From sequence record OR896834.1: a stretch of 64,000 nt of DNA, one strand, 5' to 3'. Source of the DNA: Escherichia phage Baret. This document shows, piece by piece, positions 3,326 to 43,368 of the stretch. A model generated the notes under the pieces. That model worked only from the letters and a program-made list of their open reading frames with translations. It was not told the origin of the DNA and made no database searches. How positions within the stretch are numbered: position 1 is the stretch's first letter; every line of letters starts with the position of its first letter. The translations under genes and the position numbers were made by a program.

Positions 3326-3523
3326 TTAGACGCTTAAAATACTTCTAATCTCTTCTATATACTTACCTACTTTTTTAGCATCTACTTTACTTAGTTTTCC
3401 TATATCAAAATCAGGATCAGTAAACATTCTAGCTATCTCTATCTCTAGAGACTTACTAATTTTCCCGGTAGTATTCCACTTAGAAATCTTACCTTTTATT
3501 TTCCAAAATTCCTTATTCATCAT
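3326..3523 (-). CDS. hypothetical protein (65 aa)
   Basis: ORF track; co-directional tight operon. Confidence 0.4.
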   Translation of the reverse strand: MMNKEFWKIKGKISKWNTTGKISKSLEIEIARMFTDPDFDIGKLSKVDAKKVGKYIEEIRSILSV

Positions 3524-3905
3524 TTAGGCCTGGAACATAAATCCCAACACGGTTTAATTGTTCTTTAGCTTCTTTGAGAATATCTGGAGTGTACTCCCAA
3601 ATATCATCTTCTACCTGTAAAAGATGGGGCGAACAACCGTCATCAGGCACACGACATATGGCCAAACCACGTGGATGGAATATAGAGAAGTTTAGGGCAA
3701 CAATTAAACCCATAGCAGACAATTCATTCCAATCCAATTCCCATTCCCTAGCGTAGCCTGATAGGAAAACACCAACACAGGGATCATCTATTTGCTGCTC
3801 TGGAAAAGTGAAGGAGGCTTGTCTTACCCCCAACCAACGTTGTAGCAGCTTCTCAGCACGCTTCACCAAACTAGGATCAATCTGACGCCAATATACTTGT
3901 TCCAT
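3513..3905 (-). CDS. hypothetical protein (130 aa), paralog of adjacent 142-aa ORF
   Basis: ORF track; shares ...WxELDxMGLxxALN...YxPGL pattern with 3915-4343 product. Confidence 0.5.
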   Translation of the reverse strand: MEQVYWRQIDPSLVKRAEKLLQRWLGVRQASFTFPEQQIDDPCVGVFLSGYAREWELDWNELSAMGLIVALNFSIFHPRGLAICRVPDDGCSPHLLQVEDDIWEYTPDILKEAKEQLNRVGIYVPGLNDE

Positions 3906-3914
3906 TCTGCCTCC

Positions 3915-4343
3915 TTAAGCAGTTAAACCTGGGATCATATACCCGAAATGGCGAAGTTTCTGAATCCCCTCATTCACTTCTTCCGGTGAGTAAGACCAAC
4001 CATAACGTTCATTAACCTGAAAACCAGGAGATTCACTAGTTTTATAGTTAACAACTAGGCGATGCTTAGCAGGCATAAACAGCTTATAGTTTAACGCAAA
4101 AACTAAGCCCATTTCGTCTAACTCTTTCCAGCCCACAATCTCTTCAAGACCATCCTCTACCTGCACAATTAAACCAATACAGGGGGCCTCATCAATATCA
4201 TCCTTAAAAGCAAAGGAGATTTCGTTATTCTCACACCATATTTTCAAAGAGTTAATAGCCTCATTATACAGGCTAGCTGGGAGAGTACGCCAAAAGTTAA
4301 CCAAAATTGGGTTAGCTTCTTTAGAGAATACATTATTGAACAT
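3915..4343 (-). CDS. hypothetical protein (142 aa), paralog of adjacent 130-aa ORF
   Basis: ORF track; tandem duplicate of 3513-3905. Confidence 0.5.
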   Translation of the reverse strand: MFNNVFSKEANPILVNFWRTLPASLYNEAINSLKIWCENNEISFAFKDDIDEAPCIGLIVQVEDGLEEIVGWKELDEMGLVFALNYKLFMPAKHRLVVNYKTSESPGFQVNERYGWSYSPEEVNEGIQKLRHFGYMIPGLTA

Positions 4344-4345
4344 AT

Positions 4346-4852
4346 TTACACCTTAAATTGTTGTAAGGATTTACACATTTCAATATCTGGGCTAAATTCT
4401 AGCATATAGCTAACAGCTTTTAAATCTTGAAGATTTATCCCAGTCCTACCGTTGACTATAACCGTTGGATACTGATACATCATAGCACCAGCATCATCAA
4501 GCACACACCAATGTTTGAGCTTATGCTTTTCAACGAAACGGAGAACAGAATTACCTCTAGATAGCCCACCCCCAGTAAAATCAGTTGTACCAAGAAAACG
4601 ATCGATAAGACCTAATCCGGTCATAATCTGAACGTTCTCCATCTCATTCCTGACAGAGAACCATGAGGATACTCCAACAATCATTATCGGAGAAGGACGA
4701 ATAAAATCCTGAAAAGCCTTGAGAAGCGGTTTGAAAACCCAGTCACTTCCAAAGAAAATCTTTTCATTATCAGGTGCATGATGATGGGAGATGCTCGAAT
4801 TGAGCACCCCATCAATGTCTAGAAAAATAATTGGAGTATTACTTATTTCCAT
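4346..4852 (-). CDS. HAD-superfamily phosphatase-like protein
   Basis: N-terminal IFLDIDGVL (DxDG motif I of HAD hydrolases); 168 aa. Confidence 0.5.
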   Translation of the reverse strand: MEISNTPIIFLDIDGVLNSSISHHHAPDNEKIFFGSDWVFKPLLKAFQDFIRPSPIMIVGVSSWFSVRNEMENVQIMTGLGLIDRFLGTTDFTGGGLSRGNSVLRFVEKHKLKHWCVLDDAGAMMYQYPTVIVNGRTGINLQDLKAVSYMLEFSPDIEMCKSLQQFKV

Positions 4853-5021
4853 TTTTGTTCCTTTCTAAGAACGTATCATACTCAACCGTATCAACATATA
4901 TAACACCATAGTCATCAGATTTATAGTCCATTTCCCACAGCTCACAACGATAGCACCAACTACCGTCCGCCCATACAAATATATCATCAGGGTGTGTATA
5001 CACAGATTTAATTATGGACAT
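4839..5021 (-). CDS. hypothetical protein (60 aa)
   Basis: ORF track; overlaps neighbours by a few nt in operon-like fashion. Confidence 0.35.
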   Translation of the reverse strand: MSIIKSVYTHPDDIFVWADGSWCYRCELWEMDYKSDDYGVIYVDTVEYDTFLERNKNGNK

Positions 5022-5866
5022 ATTTGTTTCCCCGGCACATAAGGTCTACCCTCTAAATGGGCTTCTACACGAGCGATAAAATCAGGGTCATTGAAAGCAT
5101 CTACCGCACCTTTACTCCAGTAAGAGATACCACGTTCTTCCAGCTGGTACATCTCACTACGAGTCATACCTTGATAGCCAGGTTCCGCTGCGAGGGCACT
5201 ATCATAGTAGTTAACAACCATAAGTTTCGCAGCAGTCAAATTAAGAACAGGAAATAATTCCCAGTAGAAGTTAATTACTTGGTTAGAGCAACCAACCACA
5301 ATGATCATATCTTGACTGGTAATACCATCAAAAATATTGTACATTTCTGCATACGCTGGAGCATGCTCCCCAAAGAAGATTACATTAGGTTTAACCCATT
5401 TATAATCATCTGGATCAATAGAAGTGTACCCTACATCAATAATCCGTTTATTGCTACTATTGTAGCTATCAGCTACAACAACCTCTTTTAAATATCCGTG
5501 AATGTGCAGAATGTCACTATGTGGAACGCCAGCACGCTCAATAAGGTCATCAACGTTGGTAGTCAAGTTTACTACCTGACCTGGATATTGTTTATACCAT
5601 TCACCAATACGCAAATGTGCAAGATTGGGTTCAACAGTTTTTAGCTCTTCACGACGTTTGTTGTAAAACATATGGGTTTTATGGTAAAAATTACCACGAA
5701 AGGCATGAATATTACATACTTCTTCTAGATCATAATCATCCCACAGTGCTTTACCACTAGCAGTATCAGTACGAAAAGCTCGTACACCACTTTCAACACT
5801 CAAACCCGCACCGCTAATAATAATTAATCTACGCATTTTCCACCTGTTCTCTGAAGTTTTGCCCAA
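5012..5866 (-). CDS. Sir2-family (sirtuin-like) NAD-dependent protein
   Basis: IISGAGLSVESGVRAFR (sirtuin GAGIS..SGIP.FR motif) and NVDDLIERAG...HIHG; true start may be the internal Met (MRRLII...). Confidence 0.6.
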   Translation of the reverse strand: MGKTSENRWKMRRLIIISGAGLSVESGVRAFRTDTASGKALWDDYDLEEVCNIHAFRGNFYHKTHMFYNKRREELKTVEPNLAHLRIGEWYKQYPGQVVNLTTNVDDLIERAGVPHSDILHIHGYLKEVVVADSYNSSNKRIIDVGYTSIDPDDYKWVKPNVIFFGEHAPAYAEMYNIFDGITSQDMIIVVGCSNQVINFYWELFPVLNLTAAKLMVVNYYDSALAAEPGYQGMTRSEMYQLEERGISYWSKGAVDAFNDPDFIARVEAHLEGRPYVPGKQICP

Positions 5867-6050
5867 TACTGTCTAATAGCTCAGCTAATTCTTTATTGCC
5901 TTTCTCCATTAAGGTATTAGCAATAACTTCTAGCATATTAGCGCAGGATTCAACACCATCCTTATAGCCAGTTTCCCAATACTGCATTAATGCGTTTTCC
6001 AAAGCGGCATTTAAACCCTTATCTGGTAGCATCGGCTTCGAGAATGCCAT
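5829..6050 (-). CDS. hypothetical protein (73 aa)
   Basis: ORF track. Confidence 0.4.
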   Translation of the reverse strand: MAFSKPMLPDKGLNAALENALMQYWETGYKDGVESCANMLEVIANTLMEKGNKELAELLDSIGQNFREQVENA

Positions 6051-6243
6051 AAAGTTTCTCCTCTAGTTCCATAACACGATTTTCATAAGAAGCACGCAAC
6101 TTTTCAATTGCCAGCGCACGCACTGTAACCTCATTAGAATTAATAGCTAACTGGGCTAGGTCTTCTGTTTCCATACGTCCGTTGTAAATTAAGCGATATT
6201 TAAGGTGTTTCACATTCTTAGTCATTATTAAACTCCACTGCAA
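6019..6243 (-). CDS. hypothetical protein (74 aa)
   Basis: ORF track. Confidence 0.4.
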   Translation of the reverse strand: MQWSLIMTKNVKHLKYRLIYNGRMETEDLAQLAINSNEVTVRALAIEKLRASYENRVMELEEKLYGILEADATR

Positions 6244-6598
6244 CTGTTTCTAGGTCTTCATCAGAAAAACTAGAGTATACATCTTTAAGATATTGTTTAA
6301 TACTCCAAGTAATATCTTCGTACCCATGGGGGCTACGTTGGTACACTTTTAGCACTCTATTATACACAAATTCAAGATTACATTTTACTTCATCTCTGTC
6401 TTCATCAAACAAGCAATATGGATTATAAGGTGATACATCTAGATTTGTTCCCACCCAATCGCCAATAATTGATGAATATCCAATACCCTCTAGATGGGAA
6501 TAATCTCCAGTAGATGCAAAAATAGCTTCTCTAAGATCGTCTACGCCAAGATGGAAACTACCACATGTAGACTCAACTATATAGGGCTTTAATTCCAT
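6218..6598 (-). CDS. hypothetical protein (126 aa)
   Basis: ORF track; immediately downstream of nrdD; no radical-SAM CxxxCxxC motif, so not an NrdG activase. Confidence 0.45.
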   Translation of the reverse strand: MELKPYIVESTCGSFHLGVDDLREAIFASTGDYSHLEGIGYSSIIGDWVGTNLDVSPYNPYCLFDEDRDEVKCNLEFVYNRVLKVYQRSPHGYEDITWSIKQYLKDVYSSFSDEDLETVAVEFNND

Positions 6599-6697
6599 AC
6601 CTTTCTCCTATCAAATTTATAAATCTATTATATATAAATTTTTGGCTGAAAGCAAATAAAATAAAAGCCAGGTCGACTAGCAACCCGGCTGATTAGC

Positions 6698-17626: not shown

Positions 17627-18328
17627 ATGAAAGTAAAACCATTTGGTATGCTAGATATTGAATCTCTAGGAACTCCAGGAGATTGTGGTACTACTCATAT
17701 CGTAATGCCTTCTTTCGCTTTTGTGGCTATGCATGGGGTTGATAAAGACCCTGATCTAGTATTTGTTACTTTGGATGTGCAGGATCAGCTTAATTCTGGT
17801 GCCAAAGTTACAGCATCTACTCTAGCATTCTGGATGGATCAAGCTAAAAATAGCCCCTCTGCTATCCACATTATGGAAGCTATGAAGGAACGTAATACAA
17901 AACTGATTGCCTTCCAAAATGGTAAACATCATTGCACTAATAAATTAGGCTCAAACTATGCTGCCTTCTCTATGGCTCAAAATATTATGGAGTTGGCTCT
18001 AGGCGAAAATGCTTTGTATTATGGCAATGGCCCAGAGTTTGATATGACTATCTACTCTGCAAACACGTTCCATGCTGGAACCAATGAAGAGGTAGTTCCA
18101 TGGAAATTCTGGAATTTGGGTAATGTTCGATCTCTTCGTAATCTCTGGATGCAAGCTGGATACAGTTATAAGGCTCTAGAGACCGAAGGTATTAGCTGGG
18201 CAATAGCTAAAATGGAGAAGATGGACACCATTCGTTATGGGATCTATCCGGTTAAGCACGACCCAGCATTCGATGCCCTAGTTGAGAGTTATTGTGTTGC
18301 AGCTATGATCGAAAAAATGAAAATTTGA
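17627..18328 (+). CDS. DEDD-family 3'-5' exonuclease-like protein
   Basis: 233 aa; MLDIESLG (Exo I DxE) and HDPAFDALV (Exo III H..D) motifs. Confidence 0.55.
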   Translation: MKVKPFGMLDIESLGTPGDCGTTHIVMPSFAFVAMHGVDKDPDLVFVTLDVQDQLNSGAKVTASTLAFWMDQAKNSPSAIHIMEAMKERNTKLIAFQNGKHHCTNKLGSNYAAFSMAQNIMELALGENALYYGNGPEFDMTIYSANTFHAGTNEEVVPWKFWNLGNVRSLRNLWMQAGYSYKALETEGISWAIAKMEKMDTIRYGIYPVKHDPAFDALVESYCVAAMIEKMKI

Positions 18329-19715: not shown

Positions 19716-20033
19716 ATGACTTTTCATATTTTGATTGATGATGTGCGTAATCTTCATGGAATGGACATTATCATTCGAACCCCAGAAGCCGCTGTAGAGT
19801 TTCTGAATAAAACTGATACCACAGGCCATTTCGTTTATATGGATAATGACTTGGCTGTAGATGGTATGGAAGGTTATCAAATTCTTCGTTTACTCTTAGA
19901 ATTTGGGCAGAGACCAAAGAAAGTGGTACTAGTAACCTCGAACCCAGTAGCTAAGCAAAATATGCGTAATGATTTGCTTGACTTAGGGTATAAAGAAAAT
20001 CCCAATCGTGTTGAATATGATTGGCAGGAGTAA
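19716..20033 (+). CDS. hypothetical protein (105 aa)
   Basis: ORF track. Confidence 0.45.
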   Translation: MTFHILIDDVRNLHGMDIIIRTPEAAVEFLNKTDTTGHFVYMDNDLAVDGMEGYQILRLLLEFGQRPKKVVLVTSNPVAKQNMRNDLLDLGYKENPNRVEYDWQE

Positions 20034-20556: not shown

Positions 20557-20727
20557 ATGAAATCAGTTGTAATTATTGGTGTTAACACTCGCGGTATTCG
20601 TACTACGAAAACTGTTAAAACTTCTAACGTTGCTGAGATCACTACGAACCCTAAAAAGTTTGATTTCGCCAAAGTCTCAGCAGTTATGACAGAACGATCT
20701 TTTAACCAAGCGTTAGGAATGAAATAA
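20557..20727 (+). CDS. hypothetical small protein (56 aa)
   Basis: ATG 20557 with SD GAGAGGAAG after promoter; below ORF-track size cut-off. Confidence 0.35.
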   Translation: MKSVVIIGVNTRGIRTTKTVKTSNVAEITTNPKKFDFAKVSAVMTERSFNQALGMK

Positions 20728-21170
20728 TGGAAGAGAATATTTTAGATGTTTTGCGTAGAGCTTTGCAGGATTCTAAGTTTAATGGTTCTGATAAAGAAGT
20801 CGCTAAAAGCTATCAGACCATAATCGGGGATCTTCAGCGTATTAATAAAGATTTCATCACTTCTGAACAATTTGTGTCTTATCTCAAAGCTCAACTAAAA
20901 AGCATTAACCAGATGAAAGCTAAACTTCATGGTCAAGATCTTGATAGTTATAGCTTGCAGTCCGCTCAGTATGAATACATTCTAAATAAGTGGTTGCAGG
21001 AGTATCTGCCTCCTCAGTTATCTGATACTGAGATTCGTAAATACTTTGCAGAATTAGTTAAGCTAAACCCTGGAATTACAAAAGGTATGCTAATGAAAGC
21101 GATTAAGGAAGAATTTCCTGGGCGTTATGATGGTGGTACTGCTGCTCAGATTGCTGGCGAATTTAATTAA
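20727..21170 (+). CDS. hypothetical protein (147 aa)
   Basis: ORF track. Confidence 0.45.
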   Translation: MEENILDVLRRALQDSKFNGSDKEVAKSYQTIIGDLQRINKDFITSEQFVSYLKAQLKSINQMKAKLHGQDLDSYSLQSAQYEYILNKWLQEYLPPQLSDTEIRKYFAELVKLNPGITKGMLMKAIKEEFPGRYDGGTAAQIAGEFN

Positions 21171-22128: not shown

Positions 22129-23076
22129 ATGTTTAATACTAAAAATATGAAAGAACTAACTTCTGAGCAGAAAGTAATTCGTACTATTAAACGTTGGGGG
22201 ATTGGTGCTGTAGTTGGTTTAGCAGGTTTAATCCTAGCTTTTAATTCATATACTATTGTTTCTGATGGTACGGTTAAAACCCAAACATTTCTTGGTAAAG
22301 TAGATCCTAACCCAGTATTACCTGGTTTCCATCCTGTAAACCCATTTGCATCTTTCGATACTTTTAGTACAAAAGATATTGCTGTAAAATTAGATAAACT
22401 TCAGGTTCCTAGCCAGGATAAGTTTAAATCCACTGTTGACCTGACTGTTATGTTGCAGTTTGATGGTTCTAAGGCACCGATTAACCGTATTAATGCAGGT
22501 ACTCAGGATCAAGCATTAGACAAATATGTAACTGAAAAATTACTGTCTACTATTCGTGAGTTTGGTAAGTCTGTACCTAAAGCACAAGATTTATTTGATG
22601 CTAAAATTCAGGCTCAATTGCAAACTGCAATTCAACAGGAAGTTGAAGAGTATGCACGCCCATATGGCTACACAGTTAAGCAGGTGTTTCTTCAGGATAT
22701 TACTTTGCCACCAGTAATCATGGAACAGGTACAGAATACCAAAGTTCGTGAAGAGCAAGTTAATGCTGCAAAAGCTGAACTGGCTCGCGTTGAACAAGAA
22801 GCTCAGCAGAAAGTTAAACAAGCAGAAGCAGACCGTGAAGCTCGTAATAACCAAGCTATTGCTAACGAACGCGACGCAGATGCTAAACTGTATGCAGCTA
22901 AGAAAGAAGCTGAAGCTAACGCCGCGCTGCAACGTACCATTACTCCTGAGATGATTCGCTGGAAGCAACTAGAAGTTGAAATGATTCGTGCTCAGAAGTA
23001 TCAAGGTGGTGTACCGCAGACTGTGGTTGGCACTGGTTACGATGGCCAGATGATTATGGATATGCGTAATAAGTAA
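22129..23076 (+). CDS. SPFH/band-7 (stomatin/prohibitin-like) membrane protein
   Basis: 315 aa; N-terminal TM helix, SPFH-like core, long Ala/Glu/Gln-rich coiled coil. Confidence 0.65.
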   Translation: MFNTKNMKELTSEQKVIRTIKRWGIGAVVGLAGLILAFNSYTIVSDGTVKTQTFLGKVDPNPVLPGFHPVNPFASFDTFSTKDIAVKLDKLQVPSQDKFKSTVDLTVMLQFDGSKAPINRINAGTQDQALDKYVTEKLLSTIREFGKSVPKAQDLFDAKIQAQLQTAIQQEVEEYARPYGYTVKQVFLQDITLPPVIMEQVQNTKVREEQVNAAKAELARVEQEAQQKVKQAEADREARNNQAIANERDADAKLYAAKKEAEANAALQRTITPEMIRWKQLEVEMIRAQKYQGGVPQTVVGTGYDGQMIMDMRNK

Positions 23077-23173: not shown

Positions 23174-23692
23174 ATGACTGTTGATGAACTAACAGAACAT
23201 CTCTTATCTAGAGGGTTTGATACAGATAAATATCACTGCTGGCTAAGCCCAGAAGGATGGCTAACAGTCCCATTGTATGACTTCTCTGGGATGTTGAGAG
23301 GCTATCAGACTTATAATCCTTCTGCTCCAAAAGGTCATGGTAAATGCCCCTTTGAAGCTAGATATTTTACTTATTCTACTACACAGTGTGTATGGGGACT
23401 AGAAACTCTCAATGGAGACGAAAAAGTAGTATTGATTGCTGAATCTGTATTTAAGGCAGTTGCGTTACATAACGCTGGTTATCCAGCCCTGGCAATGTTG
23501 GGTTCTTCCCCCGGAAAAGCGTTGTTAAAGCAATTGAAATTACTACCTTTTAAATTGGTAGCTGTTGGGGATAATGATCCTGCTGGTGAAAAATTTGCTA
23601 GACAATTAAATGGATTTGTTTCTCCTGTAGATGTGGATGAGATGTCTACCGAAAACTTGAAAAATTTTCTTGCTATGAAGCTAAATTTCTAA
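23174..23692 (+). CDS. Toprim-domain protein (172 aa)
   Basis: VVLIAESVFKAV...LVAVGDNDPAGEKFA matches Toprim E...DxD core. Confidence 0.5.
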   Translation: MTVDELTEHLLSRGFDTDKYHCWLSPEGWLTVPLYDFSGMLRGYQTYNPSAPKGHGKCPFEARYFTYSTTQCVWGLETLNGDEKVVLIAESVFKAVALHNAGYPALAMLGSSPGKALLKQLKLLPFKLVAVGDNDPAGEKFARQLNGFVSPVDVDEMSTENLKNFLAMKLNF

Positions 23693-41625: not shown

Positions 41626-42491
41626 TTATGAAAAAAGAATTTAATGTGCATAAAACACTAGTAGTACCTGATGATGTTAACTTATTCTTTGTTGGTGATA
41701 TTCATGGATGCAACGATTTGCTAGAAGATGCACTACAATTAGCTGGCTATAACGGCAAGAAAGATTGCGTTGTATGCGTGGGAGATTTAATTGATCGAGG
41801 CACACAGAATCTGCAAGTTTTAGCCAAATTCCTGTATAATCCACGCTTTATCAGTGTCCGTGGTAATCATGACCAATTTATGATTGTGGGAGATTGGGCT
41901 AACTGGATGTATAACGGTGGTATGTGGGCTATGAATGAACTAGATGCAGATACCATTAAAAATATTGCCGAAGACATGGCTGAAAAAATGCCAGTATTCC
42001 TAACTGTTAAACATCGTGGCAAGAAGTATGGTGTTGTTCATGGTGGTGTACCTTTTACGTACAAAGAATGTGGTAACGAAGTAGAAACCCCAGTGTGGGA
42101 TAACCTTATTGCACAAGTAGAAGCAGCTAAGGAAGACCCACATGACCACCCCGGATACCATGTTGAACCATACTTATGGGATCGAGATGTAATCCAAGAA
42201 ATAGGTTTTCACTTAGCTAAAAATGGTGAAGAACACTCACATTTCCAGCGTTATGCAGGGTTTAAAGAGAAATACATGGTAGAAGTACCTCCGGTTAATG
42301 GAGTAGACTTTGTATTTCATGGGCATACCGGAGTACCTTACCCGATTTTATACCAGAACCGTGTTTACCTAGATACTGGCGGTGTTTTCAACGGGCAGTT
42401 GACGGTTGCGCAGGTTAACGATGAAACTGGCAAAATCACCACATTTACCACAGACAAAAATGATAGCTGCGGTGTACAGAGGATCCTTTAA
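41616..42491 (+). CDS. Ser/Thr protein phosphatase (calcineurin-like metallophosphatase)
   Basis: 291 aa; GDIHG...GDLIDRG...GNHD motifs. Confidence 0.75.
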   Translation: MGIIMKKEFNVHKTLVVPDDVNLFFVGDIHGCNDLLEDALQLAGYNGKKDCVVCVGDLIDRGTQNLQVLAKFLYNPRFISVRGNHDQFMIVGDWANWMYNGGMWAMNELDADTIKNIAEDMAEKMPVFLTVKHRGKKYGVVHGGVPFTYKECGNEVETPVWDNLIAQVEAAKEDPHDHPGYHVEPYLWDRDVIQEIGFHLAKNGEEHSHFQRYAGFKEKYMVEVPPVNGVDFVFHGHTGVPYPILYQNRVYLDTGGVFNGQLTVAQVNDETGKITTFTTDKNDSCGVQRIL

Positions 42492-42778
42492 TGAATGATA
42501 GAATGAAAGAAGTACAAGAAGAATTACGAGCAATGCGTATTGATGCCCTTCGTTGGAGGGCATTAGCTAATGCTTTCGTCAAAGGAGATACCGGAGTAAT
42601 ATATTCTGGAATAGCAGTCAATTTTTGTTTTAATTCTCCTGCTGAAATAGAGATAGAAACAAGGCTTACTACCTACCTTAATGAGGTAGACCTTAAGGAA
42701 GGAGAGACTCCAAAGGAGTTTAAAACTAGAGTATTAACTACCTGGGTTGATAATTTAATACAAAAAAGGAGTAAGTGA
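42491..42778 (+). CDS. hypothetical protein (95 aa)
   Basis: ORF track. Confidence 0.4.
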   Translation: MNDRMKEVQEELRAMRIDALRWRALANAFVKGDTGVIYSGIAVNFCFNSPAEIEIETRLTTYLNEVDLKEGETPKEFKTRVLTTWVDNLIQKRSK

Positions 42779-43368
42779 TGAAGGTTAAATTCTGGTCAGA
42801 CTTGCACTTAGACCACCCTGGAGCACTACGTTTCCGTCCGTGGTTTAAGAACATGAAAGAGCACGATGAGTATATTCTAGATACTTTGTCCAAGCATATT
42901 GGTAAACGAACAAAACTTATTTTGCTAGGAGATATTGCAGTAGGTCGTGAAGGTCTGGCCAAGTTAAAGTCGGTTATCCACAATGTCCCTAATCAACTCA
43001 TTATGGGTAATCATGATGCGGAGCGTCAAGGACTGAGTATTAGGGACTTAGCGGAAGTTTATGACGATATTCAAGCTCTAGGCAAACAGACTGGAGGTGG
43101 CAAAAAGTTTTGGCTATCTCACTGCCCTTTGCATCCCAATGAACTTCGTGGCAAACTAAATATTCACGGACATGTACATACTACTTCTTTACGTGACCCA
43201 CGTTATATTAATGTCTCATTTGAAATGAGTAGAACTCCAATTCCACTAGAGGATATTGTGTCTGGTAAGTTTACTAGTTACGATAGAGTGGTTAATTGTA
43301 CTACCGGCGAGGTATTACAAATAGGAGAAGACGTAGCTGCTGTATTGCGTGGCGATATAAATGTCTAA
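42775..43368 (+). CDS. calcineurin-like metallophosphoesterase
   Basis: 197 aa; DLHLDH...GDIAVG...GNHD motifs. Confidence 0.65.
   Translation: MMKVKFWSDLHLDHPGALRFRPWFKNMKEHDEYILDTLSKHIGKRTKLILLGDIAVGREGLAKLKSVIHNVPNQLIMGNHDAERQGLSIRDLAEVYDDIQALGKQTGGGKKFWLSHCPLHPNELRGKLNIHGHVHTTSLRDPRYINVSFEMSRTPIPLEDIVSGKFTSYDRVVNCTTGEVLQIGEDVAAVLRGDINV

What the first reader, a model, noticed from the sequence alone, without database searches (positions are those of the whole stretch)
4346..5866. Sir2-like NAD-binding protein adjacent to a HAD-like phosphatase in the replication-gene arm
ORF 5012-5866 has the sirtuin GAGxSxxSGxxxFR and downstream HG motifs; the neighbouring ORF 4346-4852 starts with a HAD DxDG motif. 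Sir2 domains in bacteria often act as NAD-depleting defence effectors; in a phage, a sirtuin plus phosphatase could modify host proteins or manipulate NAD/ADP-ribose pools.
Basis: partly seen in the sequence, partly recalled or inferred. Interest (0 to 1): 0.5.

Follow-up and report, generated by a model that had tools for sequence, protein, structure and literature searches.

The report
Phage T5 sirtuin plus HAD phosphatase
This is the well-conserved early-gene pair of T5-like phages, a zinc-less sirtuin (T5.102) and a small HAD phosphatase (T5.105), which is already annotated and already predicted in print to be an NAD-dependent RNA-repair module, although nobody has tested what it does.

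Summary
The window is a T5-like phage (Tequintavirus). On the minus strand it carries a sirtuin gene at 5012-5836 (Pfam SIR2, E = 1e-24) and a HAD phosphatase gene at 4346-4852 (Pfam HAD_SAK_2, E = 7e-20). A 60-residue ORF lies between them. All three overlap within one early operon.

These genes are orthologues of T5.102, T5.104 and T5.105, at 94-98% amino-acid identity. The sirtuin keeps every catalytic and NAD-binding residue and the class III Y-x-x-R motif. Its closest solved structures are CobB and SIRT5. It has lost all four zinc-binding cysteines. It matches no defence-type SIR2 model.

Iyer et al. 2022 already described this sirtuin + 'Swiss-army-knife' HAD neighbourhood, using the Tequintavirus SP15 as prototype. 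They predicted Tpt1/KptA-like removal of RNA 2'-phosphates.

I confirmed that related phage sirtuins sit beside RNA ligase, cREC, 2H and Nudix genes, and that this window has an unlinked cREC gene. I also found that the closest non-T5 HAD homologues sit directly upstream of the NARP1 NAD+-rebuilding genes. That points to an ADP-ribose-phosphate substrate.

No experimental study was found. A lysine-deacylase role remains a serious rival.

Verdict: already known, low to moderate interest.

The parts
5012..5836 (-). Sirtuin gene (274 aa; the maximal ORF runs to the TTG at 5866). Orthologue of T5.102. A zinc-less clade derived from class III sirtuins.
   Evidence: Pfam SIR2 1.1e-24. PHROG 2162 2e-121. 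93.7% identical to T5.102. AF2 model pLDDT 87.6. Best PDB matches are CobB, Sir2Af1 and SIRT5. Invariant GAGxSxxSG..FR, Y58/R61, N94/D96 and H113, with no Cys ligands.
4839..5021 (-). 60-aa ORF between the two enzymes (orthologue of T5.104), carrying a 'W.DIF....G.WCYR' motif. It overlaps both neighbours.
   Evidence: PHROG 5116 6e-30. Homologues lie directly downstream of Sir2 in the divergent T5-like lineages L010, L011 and L019, and T5 has a tandem paralogue, T5.103. Overlaps read from the sequence.
4346..4852 (-). Small capless HAD phosphatase of the HAD_SAK_2 family (168 aa). Orthologue of T5.105.
6218..6598 (-). First gene of the operon (126 aa, T5.100-like, unknown function). It travels with Sir2 and HAD in other T5-like lineages.
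   Evidence: PHROG 11748. Its homologue is the gene between HAD and Sir2 in L018 (4e-19), L014 (4e-12) and L011 (3e-6).
5829..6243 (-). Two small overlapping ORFs (74 aa at 6019-6243, 73 aa at 5829-6050) upstream of the sirtuin in the same operon. The stop of the 73-aa ORF overlaps the sirtuin ATG by 8 nt.
   Evidence: (PHROGs 5236 and 5827).
3513..4343 (-). Two tandem paralogous DUF7415 genes (142 and 130 aa; T5.106 and T5.107) that close the operon. The first starts 2 nt after the HAD stop codon.
   Evidence: Pfam DUF7415 2.6e-35 and 8.8e-32. They are also present after Sir2 in a Klebsiella T5-like phage that lacks the HAD gene.
6666..6690 (-). Terminator-like hairpin between nrdD and the operon. 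It marks the upstream boundary of the operon.
   Evidence: T5 annotates a terminator and a promoter at the equivalent place, and a terminator after T5.107.
19716..20033 (+). Unlinked cREC_REC (cyclic-phosphate-processing receiver) gene, orthologue of T5.084. A possible pathway partner of the sirtuin.
   Evidence: 96% identical to T5.084, which hits Pfam cREC_REC at 3.4e-15. cREC genes are adjacent to the sirtuin in rV5-like and jumbo phages.

Best explanation
An early-expressed auxiliary module of T5-like phages that couples NAD+-dependent ADP-ribosyl-transfer chemistry to phosphate removal.

Proposed mechanism:
1. The sirtuin binds NAD+, expels nicotinamide and transfers ADP-ribose onto an anionic oxygen. 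The most likely acceptor is a 2'-phosphate left on nuclease-damaged tRNA or RNA. The ribose 2''-OH, activated by the catalytic His, then attacks. This frees the RNA 2'-OH and releases ADP-ribose-1'',2''-cyclic phosphate. The sirtuin would be a non-homologous analogue of Tpt1/KptA.
2. A cyclic-phosphate-processing enzyme opens cyclic phosphates. The candidate is the phage's cREC at 19716-20033.
3. The HAD phosphatase removes the remaining phosphomonoester, either from ADP-ribose-1''-phosphate (a Poa1/Adpp-like step) or from an RNA 2'/3' end.

Shown here: the domain identities, the intact active sites, the operon structure, and the conserved linkage and contexts.

Inferred: the acceptor of the sirtuin, the substrate of the HAD, and any role in countering host anticodon nucleases or NAD-directed defence.
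For: (1) Intact enzymes. All NAD-binding and catalytic residues of the sirtuin, and motifs I, II and IV of the HAD, are invariant across divergent homologues. Both AF2 models are confident.

(2) One translationally coupled operon.

(3) The linkage survives rearrangement and divergence. Four other T5-like lineages have the order HAD-x-Sir2, the reverse of this window, with the HAD only 39-43% identical. All 14 T5-like IMG/VR loci with a full-length HAD match have Sir2 just upstream of the HAD.

(4) Homologous sirtuins keep company with RNA-end and cyclic-phosphate enzymes in unrelated phages:
- Vequintavirus: RNA ligase - cREC - Sir2 (56% identical), next to a polynucleotide kinase, a metallophosphoesterase and a tRNA cluster.
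- Jumbo phage fHe-Yen9-04: a 2H phosphoesterase, then Sir2 (44% identical), then a Nudix+cREC fusion.

(5) The window itself encodes a cREC.

(6) The nearest non-T5 HAD homologues (37-43% identical) lie directly upstream of Adps-like + Namat-like (NARP1) genes in four Vequintavirinae-like phages. Published NARP1 add-on genes are 'feeders' that turn ADP-ribose derivatives into ADP-ribose. Examples are the Poa1-like macro phosphatase Adpp and RyDEP. ADPR-cyclic phosphate, by name the kind of product Tpt1 makes, also arises from the NARP1 intermediate.

(7) Iyer et al. 2022 reached the same RNA-repair prediction from contexts, using the Tequintavirus SP15 as prototype.
Against: - No RNA ligase or polynucleotide kinase is detectable in the window or in T5 positions 1-80 kb. 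T5-like phages therefore cannot complete a heal-and-seal pathway on their own.
- The sirtuin clade is uniformly acidic (median pI 5.3, net charge about -10). That is unusual for an enzyme that grips RNA.
- It is 40-47% identical over its core to ordinary four-cysteine class III sirtuins and keeps their acyl-lysine Y-x-x-R. This fits a deacylase equally well.
- A Klebsiella T5-like phage has the sirtuin but no HAD.
- In Epseptimavirus the sirtuin was swapped (52% identity) while the HAD and nrdD stayed at 90-97%. The two enzymes are therefore not tightly co-evolving.
- All T5-like cases share one syntenic backbone, so they are few independent observations.
- The wider HAD_SAK_2 family shows no recurrent partner.
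- No biochemical or genetic data exist.
Confidence: 0.4

Rival explanations
1. The sirtuin is a genuine NAD+-dependent protein lysine deacylase (CobB/SIRT5-like, probably a desuccinylase/deacetylase). It resets acylation of host or phage proteins early in infection. The HAD phosphatase is either unrelated or a second 'eraser', as a capless HAD protein phosphatase.
For: - The best sequence and fold matches are CobB, Sir2Af1 and SIRT5.
- Y58/R61 align with CobB Y92/R95, the class III acidic-acyl recognition pair. The register was checked against the residue numbers in the PDB titles. The pair is invariant in the phage clade.
- The catalytic His and the FGE-loop Phe and Glu are conserved.
- Four-cysteine class III sirtuins are only 40-47% away in identity.
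- The acidic pI suits a protein-directed enzyme.
- The HAD's nearest folds are capless phosphatases, among them the protein phosphatases Scp1 and UBLCP1; the top hit is MDP-1.
- A deacylase role was proposed earlier for KVP40-like phage sirtuins (PMC5107563).
Against: - All four zinc ligands are lost.
- The protein scores far below every NCBIfam CobB cut-off (100 bits against 243, 89 against 320).
- The Gly of the FGE loop is variable.
- The recurrent partners are RNA-end and cyclic-phosphate enzymes, not macro-type O-acyl-ADPR deacylases.
- From general knowledge, the host already has CobB.
Confidence: 0.3
2. This is an NAD+/ADP-ribose counter-defence function rather than RNA repair. The HAD dephosphorylates a phosphorylated NAD-breakdown product or signal, such as the ADPR-1''-phosphate made by aRES. 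The sirtuin processes another NAD-derived molecule. Together they protect the NAD+ supply that T5's NAD-dependent DNA ligase needs.
For: - HAD homologues sit directly upstream of NARP1 genes in four phages.
- Precedents exist for feeder enzymes at NARP1.
- In the jumbo phage the sirtuin lies among an Acb1-like 2H phosphodiesterase, a Nudix domain and Nampt.
- The sirtuin and its small neighbouring ORFs have been exchanged as a cassette between closely related phages, a pattern common for arms-race genes.
- T5 uses an NAD-dependent ligase, and T5-like phages invest in NAD+ rebuilding through NARP3.
Against: - Neither the window nor T5 positions 1-80 kb has NARP1 genes to use the ADP-ribose.
- No known chemistry lets a sirtuin rebuild NAD+ from free products.
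- The four NARP1-linked cases share flanking genes and probably represent one evolutionary event.
- The capless HAD fold is more typical of enzymes acting on macromolecular substrates.
Confidence: 0.15
3. The sirtuin is an NADase or ADP-ribosyltransferase weapon. It would act in host shut-off or superinfection exclusion, as bacterial defence SIR2 domains do.
For: Sir2 domains can act as NADases. The gene is expressed early (operon position).
Against: - No PADLOC defence SIR2 model matches.
- The nearest relatives are deacylase-type sirtuins.
- There is no sensor or partner domain.
- NAD+ depletion would starve the phage's own NAD-dependent DNA ligase.
Confidence: 0.05
4. There is no functional coupling. 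The two genes are neighbours only because T5-like genomes share a conserved gene order, and each acts alone.
For: - All Sir2-HAD cases lie in the same nrdD-to-origin-binding-protein segment of related phages.
- The HAD is absent from the Klebsiella T5-like phage.
- Evolutionary rates are uncoupled, and the sirtuin was swapped without the HAD.
- None of the 47 distant HAD loci has a sirtuin.
Against: - Adjacency persists through an inversion of gene order and down to about 40% HAD identity.
- Genes overlap within one operon.
- The HAD subfamily's other partner is also an NAD/ADP-ribose pathway.
Confidence: 0.1

Closest known systems
Bacteriophage T5 genes T5.102 ('putative Sir2-like protein'), T5.104 and T5.105 (AY543070)
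   Same: They are orthologues at 93.7%, 96.7% and 97.6% amino-acid identity. Order, strand and operon are the same, lying between nrdD and the origin-binding protein.
   Different: The window lacks T5.103, a tandem paralogue of the small ORF. Otherwise nothing of note differs.
Phage 'RNA-repair' sirtuin clade, neighbourhood type 3 (sirtuin + Swiss-army-knife HAD; prototype Escherichia phage SP15) of Iyer, Burroughs, Anantharaman & Aravind 2022 (PMC9503650)
   Same: The genus is the same (SP15 is a Tequintavirus). The gene pair and the domain families are the same.
   Different: That description is a computational prediction only. I add the unlinked cREC gene, the conserved small ORF, the sirtuin cassette swap and the HAD-NARP1 link.
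E. coli CobB / human SIRT5 / Sir2Af1 (class III sirtuin deacylases)
   Same: The fold matches (Foldseek E = 4e-17, TM-score 0.71 normalised to the query and 0.85 to CobB). The NAD-binding motifs, catalytic His, Y-x-x-R and FGE loop are all present.
   Different: The Cys4 zinc site is missing. Identity to CobB is about 25%. Scores lie far below the NCBIfam equivalog cut-offs. The genomic partners are different. Activity is untested.
Tpt1/KptA RNA 2'-phosphotransferase with Cpd1 and Poa1 (yeast tRNA-splicing by-product pathway)
   Same: The proposed chemistry is the same: NAD+-dependent removal of a 2'-phosphate through an ADP-ribosylated intermediate and a 1'',2''-cyclic product, followed by ring opening and dephosphorylation. 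The proposed counterparts are Sir2, cREC and HAD.
   Different: The resemblance is by analogy only. Tpt1 has an ART fold, Cpd1 is a 2H enzyme and Poa1 is a macro domain, and none is homologous to the proteins here. T5 has no ligase.
NARP1-AP: the Adps-Adpp-Namat operon, whose macro-domain Adpp dephosphorylates ADPR-1''-phosphate (Osterman et al. 2026 preprint, 10.64898/2026.01.28.702374)
   Same: A phosphatase gene sits at a NARP1 operon. HAD_SAK_2 homologues of this window's protein occupy that position in four phages.
   Different: Adpp is a macro domain, not a HAD. T5-like phages pair the HAD with a sirtuin and have no NARP1. The HAD's substrate is untested.
Defence SIR2 NADases (ThsA, DSR1/2, SIR2-HerA, SPARSA)
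   Same: They belong to the same superfamily and bind NAD+.
   Different: No PADLOC model matches. Foldseek's 50 best PDB matches are all deacylase-type sirtuins (CobB, Sir2Af1/Af2, SIRT5, SIRT2, Sir2Tm), with no defence SIR2 among them. The protein has a single domain, is phage-encoded, and has no sensor or partner.

Membership tests
Sirtuin (SIR2, PF02146) superfamily | Pfam SIR2 model above the gathering threshold | tested here: met
   87.8 bits against a cut-off of 24, E = 1.1e-24, covering model positions 1-178 of 180.
Sirtuin (SIR2, PF02146) superfamily | NAD-binding GAGxSxxSGIPxFR loop, the (T)QNID Asn/Asp, and the catalytic His of the HG motif | tested here: met
   GAGLSVESGVRAFR, TTNVDD (N94, D96) and H113-G114 are invariant in 26 phage homologues. 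They are near-invariant in 149 cluster representatives.
Sirtuin (SIR2, PF02146) superfamily | Rossmann domain plus small-domain fold | tested here: met
   AF2 pLDDT 87.6. Foldseek top hits are CobB, Sir2Af1, SIRT5 and SIRT2, all with probability 1.00.
Sirtuin (SIR2, PF02146) superfamily | Cys4 zinc-binding module in the small domain | tested here: not met
   No Cys lies between H113 and F154 in the window protein or in any of the 26 aligned homologues. The nearest ~16 cluster representatives have 0-1 Cys there, whereas more distant ones have 4. The small domain is still modelled confidently as a three-stranded sheet.
Class III sirtuin deacylases (CobB / SIRT5) | Y-x-x-R pair that recognises acidic acyl groups | tested here: met
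   FYNKRR aligns with CobB FYNARR (Y92/R95). Y58 and R61 are invariant in the clade.
Class III sirtuin deacylases (CobB / SIRT5) | Score above the NCBIfam CobB-type subfamily and equivalog cut-offs | tested here: not met
   Best scores are 99.8 bits against 243 (NF001753, a subfamily model) and 89.4 against 320 (NF040867, an equivalog).
Class III sirtuin deacylases (CobB / SIRT5) | NAD+-dependent lysine deacylase activity | not testable with these tools
   This needs enzyme assays. No published assay was found.
Defence-type SIR2 NADase effectors | Match to a defence SIR2 profile, and fusion or operon with a sensor or partner (SLOG, HerA, pAgo, TIR, DSR C-terminal domain) | tested here: not met
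   No PADLOC hit for any gene of the operon. The protein has a single domain, and its neighbours are small phage ORFs and a HAD.
Phage RNA-repair sirtuin clade (Iyer et al. 2022), type 3 neighbourhood | Phage sirtuin of this clade in a conserved neighbourhood with a SAK-type HAD phosphatase | tested here: met
   The domains are confirmed. The prototype SP15 belongs to the same genus. The linkage recurs in five T5-like lineages.
Phage RNA-repair sirtuin clade (Iyer et al. 2022), type 3 neighbourhood | Tpt1-like 2'-phosphotransferase activity on RNA | not testable with these tools
   This is a prediction only. The clade's acidic pI and the absence of a phage ligase are cautions.
HAD superfamily phosphatase, HAD_SAK_2 (PF18143) | Pfam model above threshold, and a HAD Rossmannoid fold | tested here: met
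HAD superfamily phosphatase, HAD_SAK_2 (PF18143) | Catalytic motifs I (DxDx[TV]), II (S/T) and IV (DD) | tested here: met
   D12-I-D14-G-V, S62/S63 and D119-D120 are invariant or nearly so in 18-21 homologues down to 28% identity.
HAD superfamily phosphatase, HAD_SAK_2 (PF18143) | Motif III Lys/Arg | tested here: inconclusive
   R99, in the signature GGGxSRG, is invariant. Its equivalence to motif III was not checked in three dimensions.
NARP1-AP phosphatase Adpp | Macro domain homologous to Poa1 | tested here: not met
   The protein is a HAD, not a macro domain. Only the operon position of its homologues is analogous.

The most novel reading that the evidence does not exclude
HAD_SAK_2 phosphatases of this subfamily are ADP-ribose-phosphate phosphatases acting on ADPR-1''-P, or on opened ADPR-cyclic phosphate. 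They would be non-homologous stand-ins for the macro-domain enzymes Poa1 and Adpp.

Beside NARP1, they would feed ADP-ribose into NAD+ resynthesis, and so could counter aRES-type NAD+ phosphorolysis. Beside the T5 sirtuin, they would clear the by-product of a sirtuin-catalysed, Tpt1-like phosphotransfer. This would make Sir2 -> cREC -> HAD a complete analogue of the yeast Tpt1 -> Cpd1 -> Poa1 route. It would also be the first sirtuin shown to act on a phosphate rather than an acyl-lysine.
Probability: 0.2. Interest if true: 0.65.

Novelty: already known. Interest (0 to 1): 0.3.

Why it matters
The finding matters little as a discovery. The genes are orthologues of long-annotated T5 genes, and the pairing and a functional prediction are already published.

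It matters somewhat as an open problem:
- This sirtuin clade is present in about 1,000 sequenced phage genomes, and no experimental study of it was found in the literature searches.
- If it really transfers ADP-ribose to an RNA phosphate, it would extend sirtuin chemistry beyond acyl-lysine and add an NAD-dependent branch to phage RNA repair.
- The HAD-NARP1 link suggests a cheap, testable candidate for a new 'feeder' enzyme in the NAD+ arms race.

Tried and rejected
(1) Defence-type NADase reading. PADLOC gave no hit, so it was rejected.

There is none in the operon.

(3) A Sir2-HAD fusion, suggested because PHROG 18062 ('Sir2') hits both proteins. That PHROG is the C-terminal half of the HAD protein, mislabelled. 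It causes the HAD gene to be annotated 'Sir2' in RefSeq records. Its weak hit to sirtuin residues 179-226 (E = 1.9e-6) remains unexplained.

(4) Phage-encoded RNA ligase, polynucleotide kinase, Adps or Namat in the window or in T5 positions 1-80 kb. tblastn found none.

(5) NARP3 (PnuC/NadR) around 17-27 kb of the window. It was not found. The ORFs there are an SPFH protein, an exoribonuclease-like protein, a YqeY-like protein, a Toprim protein and a cell-wall hydrolase.

(6) A solved structure homologous in sequence to the HAD. There is none.

(7) A general partner for the wider HAD_SAK_2 family. 47 distant IMG/VR loci were scanned. None has a sirtuin. Two distinct loci have Rnl1, a kinase and a phosphoesterase nearby, and two have a NAPRTase-like gene. 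A Pfam census of the 150 nearest neighbours found no family in more than 2 members.

(8) Contexts of T4-like and Aeromonas phage HAD homologues. They were uninformative.

(9) Experimental literature on T5 or phage sirtuins. Nothing was found.

(10) The original SAK-HAD paper (Burroughs & Aravind 2016) could not be retrieved.

(11) The idea that the sirtuin could run an NAD+ phosphorylase reaction backwards to rebuild NAD+. I rejected it on thermodynamic grounds, from my own estimate and not from a tool result.
Full report
**Identity of the window**

The region 3300-6700 matches 449 phage records. The best matches are 94.8% identical over its full length (Escherichia phage HK6 and phage NBSal005, genus Tequintavirus). 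The window is therefore a T5-like phage read in reverse orientation relative to T5.

Compared with T5 (AY543070), the gene products are:
- sirtuin: 93.7% identical to T5.102;
- 60-aa ORF: 96.7% identical to T5.104;
- HAD: 97.6% identical to T5.105.

In T5 these genes form one early operon, T5.100 to T5.107. It has an annotated promoter after the nrdD terminator and a terminator after T5.107, and it lies between nrdD and the origin-binding protein.

**Checking the observation**

Both ORFs are on the minus strand.

The sirtuin call is solid: Pfam SIR2 at E = 1.1e-24 and PHROG 2162 at 2e-121. The HAD call is equally solid: Pfam HAD_SAK_2 at E = 7.4e-20.

Reading the sequence shows three further points:
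- The true sirtuin start is the ATG at 5836. It is preceded by GGTGG, and the 73-aa ORF upstream overlaps it by 8 nt. The aligned homologues begin at the same point (MRR, or MPRR in three).
- A 60-aa ORF (4839-5021) lies between the two enzymes. It overlaps the sirtuin by 10 nt and the HAD by 14 nt.
- The first DUF7415 gene starts 2 nt after the HAD stop codon.

The whole stretch is a chain of translationally coupled genes.

**What the sirtuin is**

By sequence, its closest solved relatives are E. coli CobB (E = 1e-17), Sir2Af1/Af2 and SIRT5.

An AlphaFold model built on 26 homologues is confident (pLDDT 87.6). Foldseek returns the same proteins: CobB at E = 4e-17, with TM-score 0.71 normalised to the query and 0.85 to CobB. 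The 50 best Foldseek matches are all deacylase-type sirtuins, with no defence-type SIR2 among them. PADLOC gives no hit.

In the 26-sequence alignment the following are invariant:
- the NAD loop;
- N94 and D96;
- the catalytic H113;
- the FGE-loop Phe and Glu;
- the pair Y58/R61.

Y58/R61 aligns with CobB Y92/R95, the class III pair that recognises acidic acyl groups. I checked the alignment register against the mutant names in the PDB titles (A76, Y92, I131).

The four zinc cysteines are missing in every member. The small domain is nevertheless modelled confidently as a three-stranded sheet. Zinc loss was already noted for KVP40-like phage sirtuins (PMC5107563).

An exhaustive phmmer search gives a continuum:
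- The nearest ~16 cluster representatives are zinc-less.
- Ordinary four-cysteine class III sirtuins then appear, at 40-47% identity over residues 1-190.

NCBIfam CobB models hit, but far below their cut-offs. The protein is thus an intact, zinc-less offshoot of class III sirtuins. It is not a CobB equivalog and not a defence NADase.

**What the HAD is**

Motifs I (D12xD14), II (S62/S63) and IV (D119-D120), together with an invariant R99 in a GGGxSRG signature, are conserved down to 28% identity.

There is no sequence-detectable solved homologue.

**Prior knowledge**

T5.102 has been annotated as Sir2-like since the T5 genome record.

Iyer, Burroughs, Anantharaman and Aravind (2022, PMC9503650) describe a distinct phage sirtuin clade with three conserved neighbourhoods. 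[quoted passage not shown] They propose that the sirtuin acts like KptA/Tpt1 and removes RNA 2'-phosphates with NAD+. SP15 is a Tequintavirus.

The finding is therefore already described, as a prediction. I found no experimental work on it.

**Testing the linkage**

The sirtuin clade occurs in 1,007 phage records. The HAD occurs in 500, mostly T5-like.

Evidence that the pairing persists:
- In four further T5-like lineages from metagenomes the order is HAD-x-Sir2, the reverse of the order here. The HAD there is only 39-43% identical.
- The T5.100-like gene (6218-6598) sits between HAD and Sir2 in three of them.
- All 14 T5-like IMG/VR loci with a full-length HAD match have the sirtuin just upstream of the HAD.

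Limits on that evidence:
- All these phages share one syntenic backbone.
- A Klebsiella T5-like phage keeps the sirtuin, the small ORF and the DUF7415 pair but has no HAD.
- Against an Epseptimavirus, nrdD is 97% and the HAD 90% identical. The sirtuin is only 52%, and its small flanking ORFs 35-46%. The sirtuin has been exchanged as a cassette, independently of the HAD.

**Contexts elsewhere**

- In the Vequintavirus phage HeinrichReichert the operon reads RNA ligase - cREC - Sir2 (56% identical) - 237-aa protein. It lies next to a polynucleotide kinase, a metallophosphoesterase and tRNA genes.
- In the jumbo phage fHe-Yen9-04 a 2H/Acb1-like phosphoesterase lies about 0.7 kb upstream of the sirtuin (44% identical), and a Nudix+cREC fusion follows it. 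Nampt lies 2.5 kb upstream.
- T5 and this window also encode a cREC, but about 14 kb away (T5.084; window 19716-20033).
- T5 has two calcineurin-like phosphoesterases but no RNA ligase or kinase.

The recurring partner of this sirtuin clade is therefore a cyclic-phosphate-processing enzyme, not a macro-type O-acyl-ADPR deacylase. This favours the phosphotransferase reading over the deacylase reading.

**A new observation on the HAD**

Outside T5-like phages, the HAD's closest homologues (37-43% identical) lie immediately upstream of a PRPP-synthetase-like gene and a NAPRTase-like gene. This holds in Serratia phage ChuuTotoro, 'Acinetobacter' phage ABPH49 and two metagenomic phages.

That pair of domain annotations (prs-like, Nampt-like) is the one carried by NARP1 (Adps + Namat), which rebuilds NAD+ from ADP-ribose and nicotinamide.

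Two published add-on genes at NARP1 are feeder enzymes that make ADP-ribose:
- a Poa1-like macro phosphatase acting on ADPR-1''-phosphate from the aRES defence;
- the RyDEP glycosidase acting on cyclic ADPR signals.

Those papers do not mention a HAD.

ADPR-cyclic phosphate also forms from the NARP1 intermediate. By name it is the kind of product Tpt1 makes.

The simplest single substrate class that fits both contexts is a phosphorylated ADP-ribose. This is inference. The four NARP1 cases share flanking genes and probably count as one evolutionary event. The wider HAD_SAK_2 family shows no recurrent partner.

**Mechanism and its rivals**

My best reading (confidence 0.4):
- The sirtuin uses NAD+ to ADP-ribosylate and remove a phosphate on damaged RNA, a Tpt1-like step.
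- cREC opens cyclic phosphates.
- The HAD removes the last phosphomonoester, from ADPR-phosphate or from an RNA end.

Points against this reading:
- T5 has no ligase.
- The sirtuin clade is strongly acidic.
- It is close to true deacylases.
- Coupling to the HAD is loose.

Rivals:
- A CobB/SIRT5-like lysine deacylase is a serious rival (0.3).
- An NAD/ADP-ribose counter-defence role (0.15) and simple non-coupling (0.1) remain possible.
- An NADase weapon is unlikely (0.05), because T5 depends on an NAD-dependent DNA ligase.

**Verdict**

The feature is already known and ordinary for a T5-like genome, but its biochemistry is untested. Interest 0.3.

Noticed in passing
L004 5980-9196; L012 7001-10519; L013 7001-10569; L021 5001-8222: In four Vequintavirinae-like phages a HAD_SAK_2 homologue (37-43% identical to the window's HAD) lies directly upstream of Adps-like and Namat-like (NARP1) genes. 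This is the operon position taken by the macro phosphatase Adpp in published NARP1-AP operons. The NARP1 papers I could read do not mention it.
   Followed up: partly
window 19716-20033 (+): A cREC_REC (cyclic-phosphate-processing receiver domain) gene, orthologue of T5.084. cREC genes are adjacent to the homologous sirtuin in rV5-like and jumbo phages but lie about 14 kb away from it here.
   Followed up: partly
window 5012-6050 compared with L025 3628-4845: Local mosaicism. Against an Epseptimavirus, nrdD is 97% and the HAD 90% identical, but the sirtuin is only 52% and its flanking small ORFs 35-46%. The T5.100-like gene is absent there. The sirtuin cassette has been exchanged independently of its neighbours.
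   Followed up: partly
window 4839-5021 (-): The 60-aa ORF with a 'W.DIF....G.WCYR' motif is found immediately after the sirtuin in several divergent T5-like lineages. T5 has a second tandem copy (T5.103) that this window lacks. It could be a partner or regulator of the sirtuin.
   Followed up: partly
window 4346-4852 (-); L001 7047-7553: An annotation error is being propagated. PHROG 18062 is labelled 'Sir2' but is the C-terminal half of the HAD protein, so RefSeq records call the HAD gene 'Sir2 (NAD-dependent deacetylase)'. The same PHROG also hits sirtuin residues 179-226 weakly (E = 1.9e-6), which I could not explain.
   Followed up: partly
window 3513-4343 (-): Two tandem paralogous genes (about 30% identical to each other), each with two DUF7415 repeats, close the operon. 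They persist after the sirtuin in a Klebsiella T5-like phage that lacks the HAD.
   Followed up: no
window 41628-42488 and 42778-43287 (+): Two calcineurin-like phosphoesterase genes (T5.035 and T5.034 orthologues). The first is 95% identical to T5, the second only 52%, so this is another locally swapped gene.
   Followed up: no
window 17627-18328, 20727-21170, 22129-23076 and 23174-23692 (+): Other early-region genes with Pfam hits: a Rv2179c-like 3'-5' exoribonuclease, a YqeY-like protein (just below the Pfam cut-off), an SPFH/Band-7 protein and a Toprim-domain protein.
   Followed up: no
L088 2842-3288 and 4763-5671: In the jumbo Yersinia phage fHe-Yen9-04 the sirtuin is flanked by an Acb1-like 2H phosphodiesterase (the anti-CBASS family) and a Nudt16-like Nudix + cREC fusion, with Nampt 2.5 kb upstream. 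This cluster could be read as RNA repair or as an anti-signalling island.
   Followed up: no
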